64,000 bases of DNA, taken from NCBI GenBank assembly GCA_051362555.1, contig CM120647.1, forward strand, positions 11,880,651-11,944,650. Direction: 5' to 3'. A model generated the notes under the pieces. The model saw only the letters and a program-made list of their open reading frames with translations. It ran no database searches and was not told the origin of the DNA. Shown here one piece after another: positions 3,796-63,859 of this stretch. Made by a program: the position numbers and the translations under genes. Each line of letters starts with the position of its first letter. Positions within the stretch are counted from its first letter, which is position 1. Source of the DNA: Lingula anatina. Its lineage: Eukaryota; Animalia; Brachiopoda.

Positions 3796-4052
3796 GTAAA
3801 TTTTTATCAAAAATTCAGTCATGTTTATCCCGCATATACTTGGCTTACCGCTTACTCAGATAATTATTCAATGCTTATCTCAGTTACATGAAAATATGAT
3901 TTGTAACATGCAATTTTATACCGGTTCCCGCCATATGGCGTAGTAATAATTGATAACATATGTAAGTTGTTCGGTTAAGGAAATCCGCCATTTTGTGTTA
4001 ACCAGCAAGGGACAGGCTAACACTTTGATCATTTTTGTGCACAATTTTCAGC

Positions 4053-5728
4053 ATGTCTGATTCGGCCAAGAAAGATGAGCTGGTTCAAAAAGCCAAGCTC
4101 GCGGAACAAGCTGAGCGATACGATGATATGGCTGAGGCGATGAAAGAAGTAACAGAACTCGGCGCAGATCTGTCCAACGAGGAGCGAAATTTACTCTCTG
4201 TTGCGTACAAAAATGTGGTGGGTGCTCGCCGTTCCTCGTGGAGAGTTATCTCCAGCATTGAACAGAAGACGGAAGCAACTACGAAAAAGCAAGAAATGGC
4301 TAAACAGTACCGGGAAAAAGTCGAATCTGAATTGAAATCTATTTGTCAAGATGTGTTGGTAAGTGTTGCCTGACATTTTTGTCTGATGATGACTCATCCG
4401 GCTATTTCAAATTCAGATTTTGCATAATACGTGCATATTGAATATAATAAGGGAGTAACTTCAGTTGAATTGGTACGATAATGTGCACTGTTGACAGTAA
4501 TGCTTTAGACATTTGCATTATTCTTTAAACTGTTTTAATTGCTGTCAAGTTACATTCTTGAAAACCGGAAGTATAGTTGCACATTTTGGGACAAGGTCAA
4601 GCAGGTTTCCCGGTGAAATGAGTGACAGTTGGATCTTTTGTCTGAAAGTCCCTTTCATCCATCAGACTTTTGTTATCTGGAAAATCGCACTGACACCTCA
4701 AATAATCTGTTCAATCACTATTGTAATGTAGACAGGTACGGAAGTGTGCAAGTGCCCCACCCATTTTGGTAATGTTTCTCACTGTAACGTTTACAGTGAG
4801 GACATTAGGCATTTATTTCATACTGTCATATGAAATAACACAAATATTTTGATGTTTACCGTAATAACGTGCTTATTGTTTATCAGAGAAATGCATTTTA
4901 TGAAAAATATTTTGGTTGCAAATGCAGTTTCAGGAGTCTCTCTTTTTCTCACTGTTTCAAATGATTTTCACTATTTAGAATTATGCACTGCCAGGAAATA
5001 GGCTACTTATACAATTCATTTGTGTAATGAATATTTGTTTGGATTTGTTACTTGTGTTTTTTTTTTTTTTTTTCATTTCCATCAGTATGGCGAACATTTA
5101 ATGGAAGTCTTAGCAACTGTAGTAAAATGCCCCTCCCCCTTCTTTTATGGGCCATTTTATTATGAAGTAACTGATATCTATCTAACACCTGACTTGTTAG
5201 ATTATCACAATATTTCTCTGACCTATACTGATTGATTAATAGTCTCATCTTTATTTCTATACTTCATGACATGTACTAATATCCCTTCTAAAACAGTTTA
5301 TAATTTTCAGATTTTGAAGAAATTTTTGAGGTAGATCATCCCTTTAACTGTAGGGTATGCCAAGGATTCTGTGTGGAAATAAATTATGCTGCATGCTTGC
5401 AGAATGTCTGGTTGCAAAATGTGTGGTTTGCAGGTTATTGCTCTGCATTGGTATTGATTCTTTTTGTGGACCACATAGTTGCTGTGAGTTTAATCATGTG
5501 AAAAAAAGTCATCTTGATAAAATCTGAACAGGGTTTCTTTTGCTTTTAGTATGCTTTGAGTGTTTATAAAGAAGCCTGTTAACTCCACATAAATCAAATG
5601 ATGCTCTGCAACAATAAATTAAACTGGAAAGGAAGATTGCAAAAATAACAAAAAAAAATCCACTTTTTAACTTGAGTGAAAGCGAAGAAGTAATAAATGA
5701 ATTCATGAGATTACTACCCTTAAAATAT

Positions 5729-8700: not shown

Positions 8701-11700
8701 GTATGTTGCTGTAGACCACAAGGTAGCCCTACCTCCATGAGTCAGGTAGTCTGTTATAGATCAGTAAGAATACGCTCTAGGCTGCCTTCAAACTGGGGTT
8801 CCTTTGGGTTGAAAGTGTACAGGTTTTAGCATAGGCATGTGTGTTAGTTGATCTTTATCTGTAAATGACACAACCTCCTCCCCTTCCATTCATGCACATG
8901 CACAGCCCACCCTACCAATGTGAACAAGCACACAGAATACAATGTTAATATAGGTACGTGGATTGAGTATGGGATATATATGTCATATGTTGGTTGTTCA
9001 CTGTGTTTATTCTCTGGTACAGGATCTACATACACCCTCAGTTGGCCTTATACCACAAAGCCAAAGGTCAAATATTTCATATCTAAGATTTTATTTCGCT
9101 GAACCATGACTACTTTTCAGATGACATTATGATGACTATGCTCTGCTGTACTCCTTGAAGGAAGTTGGAATAAAGTGCATATGATTTGTCATGGTCTTGA
9201 TGAGAAATTCTGTGAGGTTTTGTTTTGTCTCTGTTAGGAAACTCCCTTTGTAATGGGCCCTCCTGGCCTGTTTATATGACTATATGTATCATAATCAAAT
9301 GTATGTCTAATGTGTGCATTTTGATTGGTCTTTTTTAGAGGCTGTTGGACGAACACTTGATACCTAAGTCAAAGAATGGTGAAAAACATGAAAGTAATGT
9401 ATTTTACCTCAAAATGAAAGGGGACTACTACAGATATCTAGCAGAAGTGGCAACTGGGGAAGACAGGACGAGTAAGTACTACGGAGATAAGCCAAGGGTA
9501 AAACTACCCTGCTTCTTCCTGCCCCCCCCCCCCCCCCCCCTGCCCTTTCAATTCACAAAAAAAAAAAAAAAAGTATGTAAGTCATAATAAGCTGGGAATT
9601 CCCCAGGATTTGTGGCACACGGAGTCCAAAATATACATCTGTAATTTGGTCATCAAGTTTCAGGGGTCCAACCCAAGCAAGCCCAACCAAAAAATTCTAA
9701 GCCATTTATCTGTTTTTGGAAATATAGACCATGTTTTGAGGCTTATGACTGTCCAAATGCTGGGTGGACAGTTCTCTTTGGAAAGTCTTTGATAATGAGT
9801 CAGTTTTTGGATTAAAAAATAACTTTAGAATGTTTGCTGTGCATCAGCAACCAGTGCATAGCAGATCAAACGGTGAACTTGACCTTAATATATTATTCTT
9901 GAAGTTAAATGGTTACCTTTTAATCCTGTTATATTGAGAGGTCTCTGACCAAATAGTATAAACCCAAGCAAGATGCATCCAGTTTTCATGCAAAAATAAT
10001 AAGTAAATAATGATTAAATAAATAGTTATATTCTCAAGGTGCAGGCAGTCAGTGGCTTGCTTTACTGCTTCAGAAAATAAGTAGTCAACCAGTTGTTTAT
10101 CAAGCTTAATGATTTTTAAAACAAAAAACTTGCCATTAAGTAGTTAGTAAAATAAAGTGTCAGTGTAGTTGTTACGTAAGTGATTCAGATATACAGAGAT
10201 TAATCTGTTTGAAGAAAGTGTGCTGTGATTTTATTTCCTAGTCTGTTTATAATATATCTGTTTTAATTTATAACCGTCAGCCTTCTTTCATTCCTTCCAA
10301 TTTAATATTGCATCACCAGTTTAGAGCTACCAATCCTTATTTGAATAACTGTGTCCTTGGGCACACAGCACACATGCCTCATACGTCACTATGTACATCA
10401 TTTTTTTGGACTTAAGTTTATCACCAGAAATTTGAAGAATTTTCACATTTGGTGAAATTGAATTGGCATACTTAAGTGCAACCTTGAGCAACATATTTTG
10501 CAAACTAACCAAACATAAAGCAAACCATACTCATCTTTGTATTGATTTTCTCCATTCAAATGGATGTGAAGAGGTAAAATGCATAAACACTAGTGCATTG
10601 GTTGGAAAGGACTTGATGCCATTCATTAACATGACGTGCATCTCATTTTTTGTTGCTTTCACATTTTGATGGTCATTGAATTTCAAGCTTTTGAAATTTC
10701 CAGATTTTACTGTCAATACTAACATTAGCCCCTCTCAGGCAAATTCTTGGCTGACTCTTATGGTCTCCATACCTAGTTTCTTGTAGCCATCCTGTTTAAC
10801 TTCTCCTGGTCACTGTAGTGGGTAGGATGACTCTTAGCAATAATGCTCTTCTAATGCATGCCTTCTTGCAGCTTGACACTGCCTAGTTCCCTCCTTGGTG
10901 GAAGAAGTGCACGCGCCTTTGGTTGGCAGCAGTTAGAAACTTGCTTTTCAATCTTCATTTTCTGATCTTATTTGTTTGTTTATAAGTCTCTGGTTCAGAT
11001 GGGAGGAGAGGGGTATTGTTTTGCTTTTATGTACAGACACTGCGTGTTTGTGCATATAGTCAGCACCTGCTTCTGTCATTGATTTTGTCGTGATTTTTTT
11101 CACTGTTCGCACGCGCACACACACACACACACAAAAAAATGAATAAATAAAAAGACTTTTGCTCAAACTTACTACAGTCATTTATGGCAATTTTTCCCCT
11201 CATTTTTTCATTTTCATTGAGTAGATTTGGTTGGAAGCCCCTTCGTAATTGCAATTTCATAATGCTCATGTAACCTATATTTACATAATTGAAAATGGAT
11301 GGTGGTTATACTTTTCAGTATTATGTAATATTGCATCAAAATTGACAATAACTCTTTTTGTCCACTACCACCATAAGCACTATTTAAGAAAAACCAGTTT
11401 GCTAACTATTCCCTAACTTAATAATACAAGTAGAATTCCTATGGATTCTTAGGACTAAAATACACTCAGATAAGAAAACCAGCTTTATTGTAATATTTAA
11501 TCTTGAAGTAATGCAGTCCTTTTTTCCACAATTTGGTAATTTTAGTGCTGTCAGTGATGTTACCCACTCGTCATATATATTGTGCACAATATTTTTTTCT
11601 CTTTTTGTCTGTACATTTGACAGCTTTGCTGCCTTGTTATTAGTGTGGACATGTTTTATTTGGCTTTGTATTGTACTACAGTTTAACCATTTCAAATGGC

Positions 11701-14547
11701 TTTCCAAACAGCCCTGTCTGCTAAGACCTTGTAAATATTTCCCCAATTTTTTTAAGGTGCCTTATCATGATCTTGGGTATTTTGTTTAGAATATATATTT
11801 TTCCCTTTGGAAGTTCAAGGTGTGCCTAACAGATAGTTTGGTGTATAAGACGGTGTCAGTAACTAGAAATAAAGTAGAGGAAAGACAACATGTATATTTT
11901 GTGTACCTCTTTCATTTGTGTCTACATTATCTCTTCCTCTCCATCAAACAATTTCACAAATACTAATGTGATGAGAGTGCTTTAGCAATCAGCGGGAATT
12001 GTGAAGACTCCTTAATGGGTCTTTAGGGTTTGCGTTACCCGAGGATTATATTTCGGAAGAGAATTGCTGGAAGATTGTATCCTGCTTGCCACCTATAATC
12101 CAACGTGTGCTGTTCGCGTATGTTTGTTTGAATTGTTCGCCAACCCATTGAGTGCTACATCGCCTGACACTGCTAACGTCACAGCCCCGACCTCCGATGC
12201 CAGGCTAACACGCAGAAAGGAGCACGGGAGAAATAGGTAGGGATAATGCTGTGTACGACCAAGCTCTCTTGCTCCTTTCCGCAGTGGTTCTTTGTGTCCA
12301 TCAAACAAAACAAAGCAAAACAAAAATTCATCAGTTTAGACATAACGGTCAAAATGTACTACCTTATTTGGAAAAATGAAAGACGTATTGTTAAAAGAGC
12401 TCATTTGCGAAATGCACCTTTGATTTTTCTTTCATTTCACGGATGTTAATAATGAATTTTTTTCAAAAAGAAAAAGAAAAGTCCTGGCATGTGTTTGTTT
12501 TATGATGGTTGATTTATTTTGAGATTTGTTCTTCGCTTTGCACAGAAGAACCTCTGGTGGGAGCTAGGGAGTGGAGGTGACAACTTCAGGATGCAGGGCT
12601 TTTCCCAGGATTGGGGGTACAGGCCGTCCAAAATTATTACCTGTAATTGCCTACAAAACTTCAGGGAGTCTAAGCCATCATTTAAAAAAAAAAAATTCAT
12701 AAGCCGTCCAGTCGTCTTTGAAAAAAAAAATTACCCATCTGGTGGTGCTGGTGGCCATCCAAATTACAGCTGGACGGTTTGCTGGGAAAGGCCTTGACTG
12801 GATGGGATAAGGCACCTTGGCAGAACTCAAAGCATTCGTTTTGTTACACATTCATATCCAGATAGAAAATAATCGGGAAGTCATTTGTAGCGGCTGACAT
12901 GACAGTGATCCAGAGTGTGTGCAATGAGTTTGGTTCCAGCGCTCTAATCCCATTTCTGTCTGCTGTCATTTCATTATTCCCCATTTTCCTGTTTGGATGG
13001 AAAAGAGTGAGGCAGATTGCTGCATGCGAACAGGAAACTGCTTTATTTTTGTGCGTGTGTGTGTAATTCCATTGCATCTCCCTTGCATCGGCAACTTTTC
13101 CTTTTGGCTTGTGCTCAGTGGCTGAAGTTTCTCCTTAACATCAGTGTCTGTAAAGTGTTAAGACAGCTCCTAAGGTGTTTTCAGGCATCATTGAATTTTT
13201 TGTTAGATATGCTGCTTTGGGGGGGGGGGGGGGGTATTGTATTAGGATTTGTTGTTTTCTTTCAGTTGTATACTTGGCAAAACCTTAACCCTAAGTTATA
13301 ATTTATTTTCAGCAAATAGCCAAAATTCGGATAATGCCTATGAAGAAGCGTATAAGACTGCCAAAGATGAAATGAAGCCTACACACCCCATACGACTTGG
13401 CCTGGCATTAAACTACTCAGTATTTTTCTATGAAATTATCAATTCTCCTGACAGGGCATGTCAGTTAGCAAAAACGGTGGGTTGAATGCAGTTGTATCTA
13501 CTATTATCATTGCACTGTCTTTTATCTCAGTGTTGGGCAATGATGTGGTAATTACTAAAATTCCAACTCTGTTTAACAAATAGTAATTGGTCCTTAGGGA
13601 CTTTGAAAAAAGTGCCTTGTGAGAGGAAATGTGAAGGTATTGCTTTAAAACTTCAGAAAATAAATTGTGAGAGTCTTGATTAAAAAAAAATGGACAAGGT
13701 GAAAATATCTTCAGCAGGAATGAGATTTTTCCCATTATTGGCAAATGTCTTACTTTAATGGAACCAAAAATGTCATTTTGGAAATTGATGCAGATCTGAA
13801 ATTAAAAAAAAATGGAGAGGGGGGGGGGTCTGGACCCCATGCCACATTTTCAGATTTTCTCACTAATGGCAGTCTAATCACTGCTCTAGACTATTCTACT
13901 TTTAGAACCTAAGGCAGTGTGAAGCTGTTTTTGATTCCTGTTGTATATATTCTGAATCTCTTTTCAGGCTTTTGATGATGCTATAGCCGAGTTGGATACT
14001 CTGAGTGAGGATTCGTACAAGGACAGCACACTAATCATGCAGCTGCTTAGGGACAATTTGACGGTAGGGCAAAGCAGGGCTGGGGTTTTGTGCACTGTCA
14101 CTGTAACAAAACTGAGGGTCTGTGTAACAAATTCTGTCCTCCATTTCGTTATAATGGTTAAAGATAGCCTGACCTAAGTGGGTCAAAATTTTGGGCGAGG
14201 CTTACCTGTACAGCTGCCTCTCTATCGTTGCGGACTCTGCCACGTTACACCACCATCAGCAAAAAGCAGCATAATGGCACAAAATTAAAATATGGTGGTG
14301 ATGATGCTGTTTTGCATTAAGTAACATTGCATCAAAATTGACAAAGTAATGCTCTTGGCGGATCCTTATTTTCTGCTTAATGTCTATTTTTAACAGCTTT
14401 GCTGCAATTTTATTACTACAAACCCTGTTTATGTATCTATATATACATATACATAATAGTAAGTTGTGTTTTCGTTTTATTTTACAGTTGTGGACTTCAG
14501 ACACGCAGGCAGAAGGGGAAGAAGCGCAAGATCATGAGAATAATTAA
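4053..14547 (+). CDS. 14-3-3zeta: 14-3-3 protein (zeta-like), isoform A, 252 aa
   Basis: Coding exons 4053-4358, 9339-9471, 13313-13476, 13968-14063 and 14488-14547, all GT-AG and in phase. Motifs [87 protein letters not shown]. The zeta subtype is inferred. Confidence 0.96.
7060..7270. repeat. Minisatellite, about 35-bp unit (TCTGGTATGGCTAACTTGGTTTTATCTAGGCAACC), roughly 5 degenerate copies
   Basis: Direct reading of repeated ATCTAGGCAACCTCTGG units in the 14-3-3 intron. Confidence 0.85.
12594..12796. mobile_element. Short non-autonomous DNA element, hAT-like termini
   Basis: Imperfect TIRs CAGGGCTTTTCCCAG...CTGGGAAAGGCCTTG; flanks TCAGGATG / ACTGGATG resemble a decayed 8-bp TSD. A more degenerate relative appears at about 9592-9790. 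Confidence 0.5.
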
Positions 14548-17543
14548 CCTTTTTCTCTGCTCATTGAACAATATCAGAGACTACTGAAACTGATATAAAA
14601 CTTTCAACAATTTATCGTAAAGCAAACTAAGCAAAGTGAGAATTTAAAAAAAAACGATGAGGAAAAAAATGTGCTCATGTGGTCAGACTTGGCACGGTGG
14701 AAATCGACAGGAAATTTAACACTTTGTTTGAGCTACTTTCTTAATTGGTTTTTGATTTCAACAACAACATGGTAAACGTGAAAACGTGACAGTACCCCCA
14801 CTGCCCCCCACCCCCACCCCCAAGAGACGAAGGCAAAAATATGGGGAGGTGGGTGGGAGGGCAGCTGCATAGCGTTTCATTGCCAAAATAATGTATTCAT
14901 TGTCGTGACAAAGGGGGAGTAAGGCACTTTTGCTAGTACGTAGACATCTACAGTTGCTTAATTCCAACAGGTGCACTCTAGATAGTACCAGTAGGCGCAC
15001 CTCTGTTTCTCTTTAGAGTTCACTTTAAGCAAACTCCTGGTTCCCTATATCACAGCAGGGCAATGGCCCTGTTTCTGTCTCACCACTAAAGGTACAGCTT
15101 GCCCTTGTACTATCATTTTTCTCTGCAAGGAGGAAAAAACGTCTTTCATGTACTTTTCAGTTCAGCTTGGGTATTAAGAGGGTGGTTATGGATCGATTCT
15201 TATAACATGCCAAAATGAAGTTAACTTTACACCACTGCTGGCTAAGTTTCAGCTGTGTGGTTTGTGAAGTGATTAACAAGGTGAAGGGATCTGTATTCAC
15301 GTTAAGGCTTACTTCCCCCTTTTTCTTGATGTTGTCCCATTTCTTCCTCTGTCTGAAAGACTCGACCCAAACATTTACAGATCAGATGCCATATTACCTT
15401 AATATTGTCCCATTTCATCTTTTAACCAGTTTAGAACATTTACAGATCAAATGTTATAATTAAAATGTTTCAGCAGTTGACCATAAGCACTGCAGTGCGT
15501 CATCTCTAGTAAGTGGTCTTTCATAGGGCATTCAGAATTTGGTCTTGAAAAGTGGCATAAATGCTGTTAAATGTGCACATTCATACGTTACTTGCTGCCC
15601 GTAGCAAGACTGGCAAGTTTTGACCATCCTAGACAAAACCTGGCTGATTTCTACAAGACCACGTGACTAAGCCAACTGTATGTGTGTTAAGTTTGTGTAT
15701 TGCCATAACTGTATTGACTTTTAATAAACTTCCCCTAAGCCACAGATGTTACCTTCTCAAGTGTCAGCTCATTTATGTAGATCATTATTAATTGTACTAT
15801 TATTTGTTTTGAATGTTATTGAAATCAAAAATGGCAATGAAGACCTGTGCATAAAGTATAGACAAGTCGAGCCCACTGTGTTTATTAAGTTTGCTTTAGC
15901 AATGGAAAAGTTCCAATTGTGCTTTTGAATGTGTTCGTAGCATGATCATATGGTATCGGTTTTTAAGTTGTAACCCACTTTACTATGGAGCATCAGAAGA
16001 AAAAAAAATTGACAAAATCTTGTTGTTATTATTAGCATTATTATTATTTGAAGATCAAAACGAGGTCACACGAAGTGGAGATAGAACTGCGTGGTAGTTT
16101 TCCATCACTCGTTTCAATAGTTATAACATCTTTTTGACTCGTAGAATAGTAAATAAGTAGGTCTAGAAAACTCCCTTGAGGGTTGACTTTATTATTATAA
16201 TAATTATTTAGTTAACTCTAGTTGTTACTGCAAGATTGTATTTCTGAATACTATTAAATGTTGTCAACTTTGAATGCAATGAAGTGGATGTGATGTAAAA
16301 CACGAATAATAATGCTTCATTCGTTATATAGTCCGAGTCTTGTGTGGTATCTATCTCTGTACTAGAGTTATCTGTGTAATTTAGCTAAAGGTGCATTTAA
16401 AGTCAATTTTTGCCATCAAAATGCCACCATACAGTTTTGAATAGTATGACTAAGAAATGAACGAGGACTTCGCATATTACTGGAAAAATGAAATTTTTAT
16501 GACCAAACATTTGAAGAAGGTGCAGTTTTAAAGCTCTCTGATGGCTGATTGAGTGATTAAATCAGTTTATCCTTTTTCACGTCGACTTGGAGTGGTATGT
16601 AAAAAAAAAAAAAGTAAAAGTGGTTTATATGCATTAATGGGAAATTGTTTGCTGTATATGCTGAAAGTTGCATATAATTTGTGAAAAAGGTGAAAAGAAG
16701 TTGGAATGGGCTTGTCTCGCTTACCCTTTTTTTCAGCCCCCCCCCCCCCCCCCCCCCCAATCCCCAATCAGCTAAAAAAAAAAAAAATTCTGTAGCAGGA
16801 GCTGTAGCATATGTTGATAATATGCTTCCAAAGGAATGATAATCGATTTATGGTAGGTTCCATGAATTCTTAATGAGGTTTAAATTGGCCGAATTTTGGT
16901 TTGCTGTTGAATTTTACGTAAATGACAAGGTTTGGGCCAGTCACAGACGTGAATTTTGTCAAACACTGATGACAGTTCTTTGATTTTGAAAAACGGACTT
17001 CCGTACATGTGTAACTTTGTGCTACTTAATATATGACATCTCTTTTTCCTCCCCCCCCCCCCCCGAAAAAAAAAAATAATAATAATAATATAAAGAAGTA
17101 AAATAACTTGGGCTTTTAAAATAAGAAAGTAGAAAGGGAGTTCAGATTTTCAACCCATGCAACCTTATTGCTCAAGTAATATTATAGTTATCCCTTTATG
17201 TGACACTGGTATGCTTGGGCTATCAATTTGATATTAAGAAATACCTGCTATTTGTGGGTCACAATGTAGCTAGTGAAAGAATGTGCTCTTGAGATCTTAT
17301 GTTGAAGGAAATAAGCTTGAAGCCCTATTTCAAATAAATAAATAATAAAAACAAAAACTTGAGTCTTACATTTGTTTTCATGTTATAACATCTGTAACTT
17401 CCGAGTATTGTCCTAGATTGAGTGGCAATAACAGACTCACGTCAACTGGAAACTCGCCTATTACATCCCTGATCTATTATATTTTACTGCACATCTCATA
17501 AAAACAATTTTAGTTTTAAAGAGGTAGCAACTGTTTGATTTGA

Positions 17544-17584
<41 letters not shown>

Positions 17585-17796
17585 GGCTAAACTACAATTT
17601 TTCCATACTTACCAGTGGCTGTATAGAAATATCATTTTGTGATTATACAATTATGTATCTGAAAGTTGGATAATGTTTGCCATTGAAAAGATAAAGAGTT
17701 ATTACACCACATTACCCATCAGCCCTGCATCAAAGGGCAGCCAACCTCTGCTTTTGCATGATGCATTGACAGCATTTGTTTTGCTTTAATTCACAG

Positions 17797-20700
17797 GTAT
17801 AGTGGAAAATGCAGAGAAAGCATACAAAGAAGCCCACGAATATGGGAAGGGTAACATGGCACCAACCCATCCAATCCTCCTGGGGTTGGCCCTCAACTTC
17901 TCCGTGTTCTACTACGAAATCAAAAATTTGCCGGATAAGGCCTGTCAGTTAGCCAAAGAGGTAAGCTGCCCCTATGGTCCTATTCTCTGTGATTGCATTC
18001 ACACTGAGTTGAGCCATGGCTTTACAAATACTGGAACTAAATATGACGGACGTACATGAAAGAAAAACTGCCTTATCTTTTAATAGTCTCTCTGCCTCTC
18101 ACACGCCTCCCCATGTGTCGTCCCAATGGAGAATGGAGCGGAGATTTAATGACAGTACCCCCGCAGGAACGACGCATGGGGAGGCATGTGAGAGGCGGAG
18201 AGACTATTAAAAGATTAGGCGGTTTTTCTTTCATGTATGCCGCCATATTTAGTTCCAGGATTTGTAAAGCCATGGCTCAACTTGTTGTGATTCTTTGGAG
18301 ATTGAACCTACTCGGACTCCGTGGGGAATCTCGGTGAATGTAATCAGATTAGCAGATTAAGGCCGGTGATAGGGTTAAATACGCTTAAAATCATGTTTTT
18401 GAGTTTTTTGTGTGTTTATATTAATCAAAAAAGTATCTAACGTTGGATGTAATAACTTTTATGAATTTGCATCGCAAAATGTGTCTTTTGATGAGTTTTT
18501 CAACCGGCACGCGCCCCAGTCAGGCTGACAACTAAGCCACGCCTCTGTTACTAAGGGCCGTTGCCATGAGGGGGTCGGAGCACAGTTAATGAGTTATAAG
18601 CCGATTACGTGTGCGGTAATAGGTCATAAGTCTTACATCAGCTTAGCAGCGAAGAAGTCTAGCTAGTATACTATGGGGAAGAGAAAAGTTCGTGTTAAAA
18701 GTCCATTTCCAGAGGAAAGAAAGAAAATTTTGAAAGAGAGTAGGGCCTATGCGTGGCGGTTGGGGAAAACCGGCCCTATTTGTTCAGTCGGATAACTGAT
18801 TTCTGTATACCTAATAAATGGGTGAAAGAGTTCGAATCACCTAAATTAATTGACAAATGAAAGGAAAATCGATAAATAAATTTTAAAAAAATGCTAAAAA
18901 GGATACTTTTAGCCTAGCTCTTAATTTTTGCGATATATATCGGCGAGCGTATCTGCGACACGTTACGAAACCGGAAATGATTGTTGGTCGCCGTTTGCAA
19001 AAGGTAAACTTAATGTTGACAAAATAAAATTTTATTCTCCAAGATATGATATCATGGAGCTTGAGAGACACGCGAAAAATTGTGATGTGAATGGCCAAAC
19101 GAGAGAAATCCAAGCAAGGGTTGACAGCATGATTAAAACAATAAAAATAAAATCACATGTTAGCGGCTTTGCATTTTACGATGTTTGGAGAAAAACAATT
19201 TCAAAATCACGGATCAAGCGGGAAGAAAGAGTTCAAAATGTATCCAAAAATGAAAATCACAAAAAGACACCGAAAATAGTCAAGACTAGCAGGTAAAAAG
19301 CAAATAGGGTCTAAGTGTCATGTGTGTAAAAATAAAATATTTATTCAAAAGCCTTCTCTCAGCCACTTTTACCGCTGAATCTTGTGCAGCTGAGAGTCTC
19401 CCCTTTATCTTAGCTGGCATTTGAGAGAGACCGCTCTGAAGTAATCACTGGATTTTTCCGTTGATCTGACGATTACCAAGTGCCGTGCAAAATAATCCTG
19501 CAGCGTTACCCGTCAAAAAACTCTTATTAACACAAGTGACGGCCACTTGCTCTCGACAGACAGTTTTATCTGATCACTTTGTCGATAACAAAGAAGGAAT
19601 CTCTCAGGTAAAATTACTCGTTTGCCGAGGAAGAGCCATTGAAACTTTTAAATGCAACTTCACACCTCTTAATTGCGGTTAAACGTAATCGCCTTTGTTA
19701 GCGCTTCCTTCTACATATCCTTGACACCCTACTGGGCATCACTAGGCTAGGGCCCTCTCCAGAGCTGTCAATCAAAATGGCGGCACGCTTACATGCCTAA
19801 CGAGTGGTCGGAAAATGTAACAAAAGCACGATTTTCTGCCCCTTCAAAGCACCCAAACAAAATATTTTTAGATGACAATAAGCAATGGTTCCATCTGATC
19901 GTATAACCGATAACAGGTAAATTTGCCAGCTAAGCATTTGACTAATAAGCCCTGTTAACCAACCTGTGAACGTTTTTGGCTGTTTTAACAGCTTTCTATA
20001 TTGACGAGATAAGTGAATCGCTGCCAAGTATATCTCACTATCTGAGCAACCGATCGTTACAAAAGTTGCACCTATTGTTGTTAGGAATGTGGACTACAGC
20101 ATGATATCAGGGGTTTAAGAGGAAATTGTTTGTTTGAAAGTTATCGCCTTTTGAAGTGAATAACCCATTGAAATATGGGCTGATTTAACGTAAAAGATGA
20201 TAAAATCAAAAGTAAATAGTTTAAGACAATTCCCTGGTACCGCGCTGTAGTGTTTTCACCCAGCTTTATGAGGCCTTTTGAATCACTTGAATAGCTGTCT
20301 TGGTTATAGAGAAAATCCCAATACCGAAAACGGCATTTTTCCCCTCAAATTGGCGCCAGAGCGTCATCCGTTGGACACTGTACTTAATCCCCGTCTTTAA
20401 TTGGCCTTTTGGGAAGTTTGTTTTAATTTTTTATAAAAACTTATAAGCCCAGGGCTTTGTTTCTATGACTTTGGTCCTTTTACTATTAGTGGCCTTAACA
20501 GGCCACCATTTGGTGTTGTGTAGAATACAGAAAAGCTGGTGATGATGTGAGTGAATTTGAGACGAGGTTGTGTTAATCTGATTGGATTCAGCGAGAACCC
20601 CTGCGCGGAAGTTGATCTTCTCTAAATGTAGAACGATAGTTGCATTGGGAATGACCCCAAACTCTTATTTCATTCTTACTATGTTTTGAAGTTTTTTTTA

Positions 20701-22403
20701 ACACTTATGCAGAGCAATTTTCTTAACCATGTTGTATATTTTATGTTTGTCTAAATAAACCTCTATCTTGTCTGTGTTCAATGTATGATACAGAATACTC
20801 TTAATCGGCCAGTAAGAATAGAAGATCCAAGTACTAAATGATCCACTGGGTACATATGGCAGACCTCTCTTCAAAAGCAATGCCGCTGATTCCGGATGGT
20901 CACCCTGCCTCCACACGTGCCATTAAATGGATTAAATCTTGGCTCCGTGGTTTAATTGCTAGGACCGTGCAGTGACGGCATGTGTGGAGGCAAGGAGACC
21001 ATCATGGTTGGCCATATTTAGGCCGCATTCACAGCGAGTTGAGCCATGGCTCTACAAAGGCACAACCTAAATATGGCGGATGTACACGAAAGGAAAACTG
21101 CCTAATCTTTTAATAGTCTCTCTGCCACTCACACGCCTCCCCATGCATCGTCCCTGCAGGGGTACAGTCATTAAATCTTGGCTCCATTGAGACGACACAT
21201 GGGGAGGCGTGTAAGAGGCTTTCTTATTTAATAATAAGTATTATTATTATTATTATTATTTATTTTTTTTTTTCTCTCTCCAGGGCTTTGATAATGCCAT
21301 CAAGGAGCTTGATACGCTCCAGGAGGATGCCTACAAGGATAGCACTCTGATTATGCAGCTTTTGAGGGATAATCTCACGGTGAGTCTAACCCTCTGCTTC
21401 TGCAACTGCCTTTCTTGCTTTACCTCTCTCTCTCTCTCCTTCCTTTTCTCTTTCTCCCTCACTCTAACGCTCTCTCCTTTCTCTTTCCCCTTCTTGCCCC
21501 CTCACCTTTCTCTCTCTCTCTCTCTCCCTCACTGACTTAGGCTTCATTCACATGCAATGTCTATTTTCTAAATTCTATTTTCTATTCGCACTATCTTATG
21601 ATCACGGTCCGTGCCCTGAATATCCCGCGGCGTAATTACTGGCAGCGCGAGCCAGTTACTTATAGTAACTTATAGTAACTGGCTCGCGCTGCCAGTAATT
21701 ACGCTGCGGGATATTAAGGGCACAGACCGTGATCATAAGACATACCGCGAATAGAAAATAGAATTTAGAAAATAGACATTGCATGTGAACGAAGCCTTAT
21801 CCTCTGTCTCTCTCTCTCTGTTTCTCTTCCCCCTTCTATCACTTCTTCCCATCCTCTCAATCTCTCCTTCCTTCCTTCTCTCTCCTCCTCCGTCCCTTTC
21901 TCTCCTTTCCTCTCTCTCTCTCTCTCTCTCTCTCTTAGCCTGTCACTGTCTCTTTTGTGTGTTGGCAGAGAAATGCTTGCCATATCTGGAGCTGTTTTTG
22001 TGATAAATTTTTGTCTTTAATTTATGATTCTCAAAAGTTTTCAACCTAGCATGCCCCTCCTGGCATTGAGTATGATTATATTATGAGTACATAAGACCAA
22101 GAGGTGTGTTAGTCCATTAATCTGATTACATTCAACTAGAGTTATTGTGCAGTTGCTAGGCTTATAAAATTCATTGTGAACTGTGCTTTTAAAACAGGTA
22201 GGATCAATTTCTAGGCTTAAGTCTGACTGTAAAGTCATCCCCAGAAGACAATGTTGTTTTAACAGTTATTGCAACAAATATAGTGTGTAGAAAAAAATTT
22301 TATTATTTATTCTACTTTCTGTTTAATTAATTTTTTTTTCTTCAAGCTTTGGACATCCGAGAGTGAGCCGGGGGATGACCAGCAGGAGGTCACAGATGAT
22401 TAA
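17797..22403 (+). CDS. 14-3-3zeta: 14-3-3 alternative 3' cassette (isoform B C-terminal half; 251 aa when joined to shared exons 4053-4358 and 9339-9471)
   Basis: Exons 17797-17960 (164 nt), 21284-21379 (96 nt) and 22347-22403. First two have the same sizes, and all three the same phases, as cassette A. They encode [55 protein letters not shown] / [32 protein letters not shown] / [18 protein letters not shown]. No second copy of the N-terminal exons was found. AATAAA at about 23010 and at 23340-23345. Confidence 0.9.
17994..18292. mobile_element. Palindromic MITE (PIF/Harbinger-like), copy 1
   Basis: Long imperfect inverted repeat: GTTGAGCCATGGCTTTACAAAT...ATTTGTAAAGCCATGGCTCAAC. The ORF track shows mirror ORFs on both strands. 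Confidence 0.85.
18361..20396. mobile_element. Putative non-autonomous TTAA-flanked DNA transposon (Kolobok-like)
   Basis: TTAA at 18357-18360 and 20397-20400; weak TIR (GGCCGGTGAT vs reverse-complement AGACGGGGAT); interior more CpG-rich than the surrounding intron; no recognisable transposase. Confidence 0.4.
21021..21220. mobile_element. Palindromic MITE (PIF/Harbinger-like), copy 2, truncated on the right
   Basis: TTA|GGCCGCATTCAC terminus; closely similar to 17994-18292 (GTTGAGCCATGGCT..., ATCTTTTAATAGTCTCTCTGCC...). A related fragment lies at about 20890-21020. Confidence 0.85.
21540..21796. mobile_element. Near-perfect hairpin MITE with TTA target duplication (PIF/Harbinger-like)
   Basis: TTA|GGCTTCATTCACATGCAATGTCTATTTTCTAAATTCTATTTTCTATTCGC...GCGAATAGAAAATAGAATTTAGAAAATAGACATTGCATGTGAACGAAGCC|TTA, inserted in a CT-rich tract. 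Confidence 0.9.
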
Positions 22404-23938
22404 TTCATCCGATCAGAATGACCAAATCCAACTCAGACATTGGTCATTGGAAAGTGGACTTAATGATTTGTAGTGGATATTGAGTACAGACACATTAAAG
22501 ACAGAGCTGCCCTATAATGAACAGATGTGTATTGATGGGAGCCAACACGGAGGCCTTCCCAATTATGTTGTCAAATTATTATAATGCGATGAAAATTTCT
22601 TTTTTGTACTGATGCTCTGGACTTTGTTAGTTTGGGAACACTTGGATACTCATACCAATTGCCTCTCCCGTCACCATACTGGAGACTTAATGGGAAATTA
22701 TTTCACATCCTTCTCCTTATTAATTTTGCTTCACTTAACTAACTTGTTAGAGCTCGTTTGAGGAGTTGACCACTTACTGTTGTACTGTGGTACACTGCCA
22801 AAATATTGGAATAATTTGTAAGATACTTTACTGGAAACATTTTTTACATGCAGTAACTTGGTGTTTTTATTTATTTATTGTGCAGACTAATTTGTTATCA
22901 CCATACGATCAAATCCCTTCATTGGGAAAGTTAATCTTTACCAACCAATCAGATTGTATGTCACAGTGAGCATCATCCAATTGCAGCCTTGCTTTCTTCT
23001 TGTCATTAGAATAAATATTGTGTGGTGTGATTTGTTGGTTTGAAGCTAAGCTCTCTTCATTTTCTAATGGAAAGATTGTTTTGAAGGATGGCTGCAGTAG
23101 GGAAAGTCATGATGTGGGAAGTAACAGCAGCGCAAGAGAAATAAGCCAAAATGTGGTATAATAATAATCAGGGGATGTCTTGATATTGTCAGCATTACAA
23201 TTCTGAAGCTTGTCGCAGTTACTTATCATGATATTAAAATTGAAACATCCGTACTAGATGCCTTGTAGGACTTGTTTTTGCATCAGGGGACAGCTGTCAG
23301 TTTATTTAAGAAGCTTACTTAGACACAATGCTTTCTTGCAATAAAAAGAAATCAATAATGAGATGTAGTTAGTCCTTCTGCGGTGTAGTATTTCTAACAT
23401 GATATTTTTCTTTATTTTGAATTCACTTGTCATTGTAGCCCATTTTGCTCAGGTTATTTGGGGGCAACCTAAAACAATCCTCGTTATGTAAGGGTGTTAA
23501 AATTGGTGTCTTATATGAAAGACATAAAAAGGATAATGCAGCTTTTTTTCCCCTCTGGGCCTAATCAAAAAAGCGTGTTAATAATTTTGATATCACATTA
23601 TATTATTTCCACTTAAAACCACCATAGTTTGTTGTAGATGCCAGTCGCAATCAAAGTTGCCATAAGTAATTGATGAACAAAACAAATTAAGCAAATCCAT
23701 GAGAAGTTACAAATTTGAATATATCGAAAAAGAATGTTATTTATTATCGGTCAATGGTGGAATACATCCACTTTGAAATTTTAATGAAAGACTTGATTTT
23801 TTGTGTTAGCGTAAGTCACATGCTACTTGTTAGATTAGAATTTAACTCGTCCCGTTATTATGTCATGGCACAGCGTAATATTTTGTTTAGAGATGCAAAA
23901 TGTGGGTATTAGCCAGCGAGTAACTCTGTCGATTTATT

Positions 23939-23977
<39 letters not shown>

Positions 23978-24304
23978 TTTTTTGGTCATATTCCATTGGA
24001 GTCCAGGGCAATTTGATATAAACTGTAGTGCTTTGTAGTGTAGCTAGTCTAAGAGAGAGAAAATAAATAAATGTACTCATATTGTATTTTCTTTCTAGTT
24101 TTTTATAACTTGTGTTATGCAAATTACTTCAATGAGTAACTTATTTTTCAAATGGGGGGGGGGGGGGGGGGGGGGGTATCGGTATGGGTAGTTTAGTGTG
24201 CCAACCAACATGTGGTGCTTACTTTCTCTCTGAAAATGTCTCTTACAGAAAAAAAGGCTATGTGTGATTACCTGGATTTTGTAAGCATGCGAGAAGCCTC
24301 AATT

Positions 24305-38945: not shown

Positions 38946-39715
38946 TTTGGAAGTGGGTGTATGCCCTGACTTTTAAAGGACGCAGGAAACTTGCCTACCC
39001 TCTGATTTAAAGGGCTCCTAAAATACTATACAAAATAACACTGTGTTCAATACAACGTGTATTAACTAGCGCACCCTGTGGTCAGAGAGTATAACCCCTA
39101 CATGTATCTACTCTCCGCGTGCATCTATATTAAAACGGCAGCGGCACGCGTTAGGCATTACGCATACCTGAATGCTGGAAACATTAGACATTTTCTCACG
39201 GTACTGTACATACTGTATTGATATCAAACACGTTATATCAAATGATATAACAACTTATTATATGCACGTATTGGAGCAAAACCAAATCATTCCCATCAGC
39301 AATATAGTCAATGTGTGAATTGGGATTGAGCTGGCTGAAATCAAAATATCTACGTATATATACACAATTTTATCTTTGGCCACTATTATAGTGTGGAGAG
39401 TTGTCCTCTAAACGTACTGGTTTGCCCGTGGACAATCAAGCTTAGAGCATACTGTTTCACGGATATGGTGTATTATTTCTAATGACAAGATAATTGTTGC
39501 TTTCCTCGACCTGTTTGATGAGTGGACGACCTGGTTTGGGGGAAATTGACGAACAAAAATTGATATCCTGCCACAGGTAATTGACATGAAGTACATGGCA
39601 CTTCAGAAACGTGTACTAATAAAAATTGAGAATTGCATAGAAAATGAAGCTACTCGGAAATTATGTCTTTGGATGTTTTAGTGTCGGTGAGGTTCGTATC
39701 TGTTTAATGTTTTTT

Positions 39716-39756
<41 letters not shown>

Positions 39757-39777
39757 AACCTTAACTCTGAGTCCATT

Positions 39778-40071
39778 ATGAGGAACGCTCTTGAAGATTA
39801 CGAAAGAAATGTCAAAGTCGGAGGAATAAATTTGTCAAACCTGAGATATGTCGATGATATAGTCCCTTTTGCAAGCTCTATGTCCAAACTTCGAGAAATG
39901 GATGACAGGGTGAGAAAAAAAGCGAGAAAGTTGCTCTTTTTCTTAACGCTTAGGAAACTAAGGTCTGGAATAACCAAAAACATTTCTCTTAACACAAAGC
40001 AGAGACTGCTCAACTCTAGTTTTTCAGTAGCTTCATATGGCGGGGAATGTTGGGTAATGAATAGAATTTGA
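39778..40071 (+). mobile_element. Degraded LINE reverse-transcriptase fragment (RTE-like)
   Basis: ORF contains VKVGGINLSNLRYVDDIV (RT YADD-type motif) joined by an internal deletion to ISLNTKQRLLNS...YGGECW, typical of the post-RT region. Confidence 0.8.

Positions 40072-44302: not shown

Positions 44303-63859
<19,557 letters not shown>

What the first reader, a model, noticed from the sequence alone, without database searches (positions are those of the whole stretch)
9339..23345. One 14-3-3 gene with two complete, diverged C-terminal halves (duplicated three-exon terminal cassette)
Seen: after the shared exon ending at 9471 (phase 1) come two intact cassettes, A (13313-14547) and B (17797-22403). 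Internal exon sizes (164 and 96 nt) and phases are identical, each has its own stop and 3'UTR with poly(A) signals, and there are many substitutions but no frameshift or stop. No second N-terminal half lies between them. Known: the N-terminal helices carry dimerisation and the phosphate-binding K49/R56/R127/Y128 equivalents; insect 14-3-3zeta diversifies through mutually exclusive internal exons. Inference: here a coupled splice/poly(A) choice swaps the whole C-terminal half, giving two paralog-like proteins that can heterodimerise. Matching phases also allow chimeras (4a-5b-6b, 4a-5a-6b).
Basis: partly seen in the sequence, partly recalled or inferred. Interest (0 to 1): 0.8.

Follow-up and report, generated by a model that had tools for sequence, protein, structure and literature searches.

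The report
Brachiopod 14-3-3 with swappable back half
A lamp-shell (Lingula) gene for the signalling hub protein 14-3-3 splices one shared front half onto either of two old, diverged copies of its back half, making two proteins with the same core binding residues that likely differ in regulation and partner choice; the design is known from other genes and both forms are already in automatic annotation.

Summary
Real and expressed. The gene is Lingula anatina 14-3-3 zeta; both products match NCBI models X1 (A, 252 aa) and X2 (B, 251 aa) exactly. RNA reads join shared exon 3 to both cassettes in 4 of 4 runs; B takes 10-42% of those joints. All internal joints of both cassettes are seen. No second N-terminal half is in the window. 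Synonymous sites are saturated (pS 0.82, pN 0.20), and B looks constrained. The proposed chimeras were not among the listed reads (about 2% at most). Core groove residues are identical; B changes otherwise near-invariant positions and lacks the Ser184-Pro site that JNK phosphorylates in mammalian zeta. Exon 4a/4b repeat three diagnostic differences of the nematode alternative exon pair, but a tree cannot tell descent from convergence (p-AU 0.18). The architecture is a known kind (PGRP-LC, pipe, GNAO1); ten searches of the held library listed no paper on a 14-3-3 case. The scan found this kind in other genes on other DNA, not in 14-3-3. Tissue control, heterodimers and conservation in relatives are untested.

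The parts
4053..4358 (+). shared first coding exon (residues 1-102; K49, R56, R60 equivalents)
   Evidence: joint 4357->9338 in 4 of 4 runs; molecule ends pile up near 3978-3986, a likely transcript 5' end
9339..9471 (+). shared exon 3 (K120, R127, Y128 equivalents); its donor chooses between cassettes
13313..13476 (+). exon 4a, 164 nt; 'R-type' signature (Y174, F178, R187 in human zeta numbering); keeps S184-P185
   Evidence: (9471->13313; 13475->13967)
13968..14063 (+). exon 5a, 96 nt
   Evidence: 14062->14487
14488..17349 (+). terminal exon 6a: coding to 14547, then 3' UTR with hexamers at 15459, 15723, 16253, 16556, 17333, 17344 (3' end approximate)
   Evidence: depth by bin
17797..17960 (+). 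exon 4b, 164 nt; 'K-type' signature (F174, Y178, K187); R167L and S184L
   Evidence: (9471->17797)
21284..21379 (+). exon 5b, 96 nt; A195G, D198N, A201K, S207Q, S210A relative to A
   Evidence: (reads running off the 5' side carry the end of exon 4b: 343, 373, 97, 82 reads)
22347..24067 (+). terminal exon 6b: coding to 22403, then 3' UTR with hexamers at 22494, 23010, 23233, 23340, 24062 (3' end approximate; reads laid only to 23890)
   Evidence: 21378->22346/7: 416, 420, 101, 139 reads

Best explanation
One Lingula 14-3-3 zeta gene splices its shared exon 3 either to the near three-exon cassette A or to the far cassette B, each used as a whole and with its own stop and 3' UTR, giving two proteins with identical N-terminal halves and core groove residues that likely differ in phosphorylation control and in surfaces outside the groove. 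Shown: both splice paths, whole-cassette use, sample-to-sample change in the ratio, saturated synonymous divergence, constraint on B. Inferred: using the 4a acceptor commits the transcript to the short A introns (491 and 424 nt) and to cleavage in A's 3' UTR, while skipping it removes the whole A unit inside an 8.3-kb intron; this would explain why mixed forms are rare although their frames match. Inferred from 14-3-3 structure: A and B would form homo- and heterodimers. B, which lacks Ser184-Pro and Ser210 and has Leu at the near-invariant Arg167, would be a form that a JNK-type kinase cannot switch off at that site. The cassettes most likely arose by an old tandem duplication of the gene's 3' half; whether that duplication reused an older alternative exon-4 pair is open.
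For: Joints exon 3->4a and exon 3->4b in 4 of 4 runs, on the + strand in the stranded libraries. 4b->5b shown by loose ends with agreement 1, 1, 1, 0.98, and 5b->6b by joints in 4 of 4 runs. B share 0.42, 0.16, 0.10, 0.38 by exon-3 joints and 0.71, 0.11, 0.15, 0.37 by 5->6 joints. pN 0.20 against pS 0.82 over exons 4+5. In run X8, whose reads differ from the window at many fixed sites, 6 of 6 listed coding differences in exons 5b/6b are synonymous (chance 6e-5, or 1.4e-3 for transitions only). Both proteins cover Pfam 14-3-3 positions 1-223 of 223. K49, R56, R60, K120, R127, Y128, L172, N173, V176, Y179, E180, L216, I217, L220, N224, L227 and W228 are identical in A and B (K49, R56, R127, Y128, N173, N224 named in PMC9523730 passages; the rest recalled). 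L at 167 occurs in 1 of 385 motif copies, B itself. JNK phosphorylates zeta Ser184 and releases Bad and FOXO3a (PMC2171419 abstract).
Against: No functional difference between A and B was tested. The runs carry no tissue or stage label and come from different individuals or populations, so the ratio shift need not be regulation. The two B-share estimates disagree in X1 (0.42 against 0.71). Only 6-26% of each run was read, 7 of 9 listed runs were laid, and 22 joint rows and 48 loose-end rows were hidden, so the bound on chimeras assumes that hidden rows are weaker than shown ones; X8 gives no useful bound. 121 substitution rows were hidden, and one replacement (D to E at 17936, exon 4b) appears in X8. 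Ser184-Pro is not universal: 294 of 385 motif copies have SP and 54 have AP, and its phosphorylation is shown for mammals only. No docking/selector pairing beyond chance was found. No relative with the same zeta arrangement was found among the 430 proteins fetched, but close relatives were poorly sampled.
Confidence: 0.8

Rival explanations
1. Origin: the two exon-4 copies descend from an alternative exon-4 pair already present in the protostome ancestor (the pair seen in arthropod and nematode zeta). A duplication of 4K-4R-5-6 followed by reciprocal loss turned an internal either/or exon into two terminal cassettes, which also explains the reversed order.
For: Of 94 fetched read-through models with tandem exon-4 copies (mostly arthropod and nematode by name; 2 are unrelated whole-gene fusions), 88 have K187 first and R187 last; 22 match the Lingula B/A difference at three sites with none opposed; 81 have at least one concordant and no opposed site. 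In 24 of 94 (23 nematode-type, 1 butterfly) the K-type copy also lacks Ser184-Pro, as B does. Two free trees never joined 4a with 4b and placed 4b near arthropod K-type copies. The annelid Lamellibrachia zeta has the A-type Y174/F178/R187.
Against: The models are kin, so the counts are not independent. Most arthropod pairs agree at K/R only (57 of 94 have one concordant site), and 8 of 94 have an opposed site. The changes are conservative and R187 is also the state in epsilon, plants and fungi, so convergence is easy. The tree has 54 columns, no starred branch holds either Lingula copy, and holding 4a with 4b is not rejected (p-AU 0.184; 11 misaligned, chimeric, duplicate or long rows dropped). 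No decayed extra exon 4 was found. No lophotrochozoan model with tandem zeta exon-4 copies was among the hits.
Confidence: 0.3
2. The point of the switch is the 3' UTR (stability, localisation, translation); the protein differences are tolerated drift in a relaxed second copy.
For: The cassettes have unrelated UTRs. B departs from the family consensus more than A in exon 5 (27 against 31 of 32 positions) and at positions otherwise 93-100% conserved.
Against: B keeps every groove residue checked, its listed recent coding changes in 5b/6b are synonymous, and both copies are equally far from consensus in exon 4 (38 of 54 each). Constraint on B does not by itself show a distinct protein function, so this rival stays open.
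Confidence: 0.2
3. The locus is a combinatorial system that also makes 4a-5b-6b and 4a-5a-6b chimeras in useful amounts.
For: Both chimeras are in frame. Hidden rows could hold rare ones.
Against: No 14063->22347 joint among the 15 joints shown, the weakest of which total 12 reads, against 1537 reads for 5a->6a. Reads entering 5b carry exon 4b with agreement 1 in X1, X2 and X6; the smallest loose-end rows shown there have 6, 5 and 7 reads against 343, 373 and 97.
Confidence: 0.07
4. Cassette B is the remnant of a separate tandem gene, a pseudogene, or an assembly duplicate of another haplotype.
For: Tandem whole-gene 14-3-3 duplicates occur in Watersipora, Babylonia and Mytilus models. The rest of the genome could not be searched.
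Against: Reads join the shared exon 3 directly to 4b in 4 of 4 runs; no second N-terminal half in 64 kb; saturated synonymous divergence excludes alleles; B's frame is intact and constrained.
Confidence: 0.02

Closest known systems
NCBI models XP_013383454.1 and XP_013383455.1, 14-3-3 protein zeta isoforms X1 and X2, Lingula anatina
   Same: Identical, residue for residue, to isoforms A and B built from the window.
   Different: Names from an annotation source only; none of my paper searches listed a description of the arrangement.
Tandem 3' multi-exon cassette clusters of Drosophila PGRP-LC, CG42235 and pipe (PMC6191721: passages and Introduction read)
   Same: Shared 5' exons, duplicated multi-exon 3' cassettes, choice coupled to polyadenylation, different C-terminal parts and 3' UTRs.
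   Different: There whole domains are swapped and competing RNA pairings were shown by mutation; here half of a single helical domain is swapped, there are two cassettes, and no pairing beyond chance was found.
Human GNAO1 and other C-terminal tandem exon duplication-derived substitutions (PMC8373072: passages read; 77 C-terminal cases of 236)
   Same: GNAO1 swaps its last two coding exons for a duplicated pair that is always used together, within one conserved signalling protein.
   Different: Other family; here three exons and about 105 of 252 residues.
Mutually exclusive internal exons of insect 14-3-3 zeta (PMC6071210 and PMC8373072: passages read) and the tandem copies in nematode and arthropod zeta models
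   Same: Same gene group; the duplicated stretch in those models is the one encoded by Lingula exon 4, with the same K/R and, in nematodes, Y/F differences.
   Different: There the downstream exons and stop are shared and a downstream docking site controls choice; here exons 5, 6 and the UTR are duplicated too and the order is R-type then K-type.

Membership tests
14-3-3 proteins (PF00244) | full-length match above the curated cut-off | tested here: met
   A 352.9 bits, B 343.8 bits, cut-off 33.2, profile 1-223 of 223
14-3-3 proteins (PF00244) | phosphate pocket K49, R56, R127, Y128 and backbone clamps N173, N224 | tested here: met
   present in both (numbering from the alignment to human zeta; residues named in PMC9523730 passage)
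14-3-3 proteins (PF00244) | dimer formation and phosphopeptide binding | not tested
   inferred from identical N-terminal halves; no fold or complex job was run
zeta (non-epsilon) group | groups with zeta-type proteins against epsilon, plant and fungal ones | tested here: met
   tree of the shared half, 28 rows, 136 columns: 100/98 for the 21-row non-epsilon group; place inside it unresolved
tandem 3' multi-exon cassette cluster (PGRP-LC / pipe / GNAO1 kind) | shared 5' exons spliced to either of homologous cassettes | tested here: met
tandem 3' multi-exon cassette cluster (PGRP-LC / pipe / GNAO1 kind) | each cassette has its own stop, 3' UTR and poly(A) site | tested here: met
   stops and hexamers, UTR depth behind each; exact cleavage sites not mapped
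tandem 3' multi-exon cassette cluster (PGRP-LC / pipe / GNAO1 kind) | cassette exons used together, not mixed | tested here: met
   no chimeric row among those shown; about 2% at most in X1 and X2, under 1% for 5a->6b, short reads only
competing RNA pairing (docking/selector) control | one intronic docking site complementary to a selector before each cassette, conserved across species | tested here: inconclusive
   first 400 nt of intron 3 against 400 nt before each acceptor: after masking homopolymers 12 of 60 (A) and 44 of 60 (B) control windows pair as well; only these regions were tried and no related genome was on hand
insect-type 14-3-3 zeta mutually exclusive internal exon cluster | duplicated exon is internal; downstream exons and stop are shared | tested here: not met
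   exons 5 and 6 are duplicated and each path has its own stop
insect-type 14-3-3 zeta mutually exclusive internal exon cluster | exon copies orthologous to the ecdysozoan K- and R-type copies | tested here: inconclusive
   three matching sites with nematodes; tree unresolved, p-AU 0.184

The most novel reading that the evidence does not exclude
The either/or exon of 14-3-3 zeta known from insects dates to the protostome ancestor, and in the brachiopod line it was rebuilt into two complete terminal cassettes. Across nematodes, chelicerates and Lingula the exon choice serves as a hard-wired switch for the Ser184-Pro stress-kinase site (33 of 94 tandem pairs differ there), so one gene makes a kinase-releasable and a kinase-deaf protomer that can pair in asymmetric dimers. 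Doubled C-terminal halves in three bivalve epsilon-type models may show the same solution reached again.
Probability: 0.2. Interest if true: 0.7.

Novelty: new variant of a known kind. Interest (0 to 1): 0.45.

Why it matters
14-3-3 proteins with near-identical grooves show isoform-specific partners for reasons that a 2022 review calls largely unknown (PMC9523730 passage). This locus is a natural controlled pair: the same N-terminal half and groove residues, with 27 differences in exons 4+5 plus the tail. It lets one test which outside-groove positions and phosphosites set specificity. It also links the insect either/or exon to a terminal-cassette design in another phylum, a possible route from internal alternative exons to paralog-like products without gene duplication. 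The splicing design itself is ordinary.

Tried and rejected
No whole genome is held for this window, so other Lingula 14-3-3 loci and related genomes could not be read. The run search listed no indexed RNA holder; the nine runs came by species label. The 4b->5b joint was absent, probably dropped at the low-complexity run before the acceptor; one search showed it as loose ends. Docking/selector scan: nothing beyond chance once homopolymers were masked; the raw signal for A (2 of 60 controls as strong) is a poly-C/poly-G pair, and such runs are common in the window. Low-stringency tblastn for decayed exon copies: none. Exon-4 trees: unresolved. The search of 50% representatives gave no further model with one N-half and two C-halves among the 150 listed. 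Bivalve epsilon-type models with doubled C-halves: the first scallop half belongs to a full-length divergent protein labelled isoform X3, but its sister isoforms were not retrieved, so shared 5' exons are not shown and fused tandem genes remain possible. A homolog search aimed at cassette A's relatives was not carried out, so lophotrochozoan zeta sampling is thin and conservation of the arrangement is open. No structure or complex prediction was run, since a pass would follow from likeness to solved 14-3-3 dimers. Paper searches listed nothing on this locus or on a duplicated 14-3-3 terminal cassette; I judged those lists by title and start of abstract, the library lacks most subscription papers, and no supplements were read (catalogues of tandem exon duplications could list such a case).
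Full report
Observation. After exon 2 (4053-4358) and exon 3 (9339-9471, phase 1) come cassette A (13313-13476, 13968-14063, 14488-14547) and cassette B (17797-17960, 21284-21379, 22347-22403). Internal exon sizes are 164 and 96 nt in both, splice sites are canonical, and the frames give 252 and 251 residues. Over exons 4+5, 60 of 87 residues match, pN is 0.20 and pS 0.82, beyond correction. tblastn of six 14-3-3 proteins over the window finds one N-terminal half and no further copy of exons 4-5; the introns and UTRs of A and B share no alignable sequence beyond two short matches. The duplication is therefore old and cannot be allelic.

Identity. Two database proteins are 100% identical to the shared exon and equal isoforms A and B in full. 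They are XP_013383454.1 and XP_013383455.1, 14-3-3 zeta isoforms X1 and X2 of Lingula anatina. Both cover the whole Pfam profile, and the shared half falls in the non-epsilon group with support 100/98. Both products are thus already in automatic annotation.

Expression. Nine RNA runs were listed by species label; seven were laid, 6-26% of each. Exon 3 joins 4a in 178, 487, 236 and 657 reads and 4b in 127, 95, 142 and 73 reads (X1, X4, X7, X5). Joints 4a->5a, 5a->6a and 5b->6b are listed in the same call. The 4b->5b joint was not listed there, reads entering exon 5b carry the end of exon 4b (343, 373, 97, 82 reads in X1, X2, X6, X8; agreement 1, 1, 1, 0.98). B makes 0.42, 0.16, 0.10 and 0.38 of exon-3 joints, and 0.71, 0.11, 0.15 and 0.37 of last-intron joints. 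The ratio differs several-fold between samples, but tissues are not given and individuals differ, so regulation is not shown. B's UTR reads continue past 23345 to at least 23890.

Chimeras. 4a-5b-6b and 4a-5a-6b are in frame. No such joint is among the 15 shown, where the weakest total 12 reads against 1537 for 5a->6a; 22 rows were hidden. In one search the smallest loose-end rows shown have 6, 5 and 7 reads in X1, X2 and X6; 48 rows were hidden and X8 gives no useful bound. If hidden rows are the weaker ones, as the tool states, chimeras are about 2% at most in X1 and X2. The cassettes behave as units.

Constraint on B. Reads of run X8 differ from the window at many fixed sites. The six coding differences listed in exons 5b and 6b (five from the substitution table, one from the joint table) are all synonymous; chance is 6e-5, or 1.4e-3 for transitions only. 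121 rows were hidden, so the list may be incomplete. In exon 4b one synonymous variant (17810) and one D-to-E change (17936) were seen.

What differs between the proteins. With human zeta numbering taken from the alignment, 17 pocket and groove positions checked are identical in A and B. K49, R56, R127, Y128, N173 and N224 are named in PMC9523730 (passages); the other positions are recalled. That review also says groove residues are conserved while the surface outside the channel varies, and that the basis of isoform-specific binding is largely unknown. B departs at positions that are 88-100% conserved among 161 single-copy relatives: R167L, A195G, D198N, A201K, S210A; it also has S184L (S in 77%). 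Leu at 167 occurs in 1 of 385 motif copies. In mammals JNK phosphorylates zeta Ser184 and frees Bad and FOXO3a (PMC2171419, abstract only). That B escapes such control, that these positions lie outside the groove, and that A and B heterodimerise are inferences; none was tested.

How the choice likely works (inferred). Use of the 4a acceptor would be followed by the short A introns and cleavage in A's UTR; skipping it removes all of A as one 8.3-kb intron. A scan for a docking site in the first 400 nt of intron 3 found nothing beyond chance after masking homopolymers (12 of 60 and 44 of 60 controls as strong). Without related genomes this test is weak.

Relation to other zeta genes. Many arthropod and nematode gene models read through two tandem copies of the stretch that Lingula exon 4 encodes. 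Of 94 such models, 88 have K187 first and R187 last; 22 match the Lingula B/A contrast at three sites (F/Y174, Y/F178, K/R187) with none opposed, 57 match at one site, 8 have an opposed site. In 33 of 94 one copy lacks Ser184-Pro, while 59 keep it in both. Lingula has the reverse order, R-type first. This fits descent from an ancestral pair by duplication and reciprocal loss, but the models are kin, the changes are conservative, and trees of 54 columns are unresolved: the free trees keep 4a and 4b apart, yet joining them is not rejected (p-AU 0.184 after dropping 11 rows). No lophotrochozoan zeta model with tandem exon-4 copies or with this cassette pair was among the 430 proteins fetched; sampling of close relatives was thin.

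Comparison with what is known. [quoted passage not shown] Human GNAO1 swaps two terminal exons as a unit (PMC8373072, passages). Insect 14-3-3 zeta has an internal three-exon cluster with a downstream docking site (PMC6071210, passages). This locus meets the features of the first kind and fails the 'internal, shared downstream exons' feature of the last. Ten searches listed no paper on a duplicated 14-3-3 terminal cassette or on this gene; I saw listings and abstract starts only, and no supplements. Earlier notes of this scan report the same kind in other genes and nothing like this sequence.

Verdict. The feature is real, expressed and constrained: a new variant of a known kind, in a family where I found it undescribed, already captured by automatic annotation. 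Interest 0.45. The bolder reading, an ancestral exon switch for the Ser184 site rebuilt as terminal cassettes, has probability about 0.2.

Noticed in passing
window 17999-18290 and 21029-21219: A 292-nt palindromic element just after the 4b donor and a partial copy (83-87% alike) 65 nt before the 5b acceptor; the two can pair across the 3.3-kb intron. They are the only copies in the window. They look like miniature transposons; a role in 4b->5b splicing is untested.
   Followed up: partly
window 18324-20601: 31-nt inverted ends (81% complementary) enclose about 2.3 kb with low read depth on both strands and a 123-aa open frame (18925-19296) without a Pfam match; probably a decayed DNA transposon in intron 4b.
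   Followed up: partly
window 21539-21797: A second palindromic element in intron 5b; reads with loose ends pile on it, as for a repeat transcribed elsewhere.
   Followed up: no
window 11290-11640 (short match at 14289-14344): Hundreds of reads with loose ends in all four runs: a transcribed repeat family inside intron 3, with a short related piece in intron 5a.
   Followed up: no
P0123 (Pinctada), P0124 (Mizuhopecten), P0127 (Mimachlamys), P0230, P0232: Three bivalve epsilon-type models hold two diverged C-terminal halves in tandem; the first scallop half also occurs in full-length proteins labelled isoform X3 or X2. Either a convergent cassette swap or fused tandem genes. The scallop first halves share A201K with Lingula B.
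   Followed up: partly
P0102 (Lamellibrachia satsuma, KAI0242859.1): Annelid zeta model that reads through two diverged copies of the exon-5 stretch: a likely either/or exon 5.
   Followed up: no
runs X7 and X8 over window 14572-16000 and 21284-23890: These runs differ from the window at many fixed sites (only 45 of 958 reads 99% alike in X8), as from a distinct population or cryptic species under the same label.
   Followed up: no
window 9522-9540 and 13219-13234: A poly-C run after the exon 3 donor and a poly-G run 80 nt before the 4a acceptor could pair; such runs are frequent (7 C and 3 G runs of 12 or more in the window), so probably chance.
   Followed up: partly
window 39691-40071 (+) and 59309-59800 (-): A weak reverse-transcriptase match below Pfam's cut-off, and an open frame that looks by eye like a trypsin-type protease exon (recalled motifs, not scanned).
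   Followed up: no
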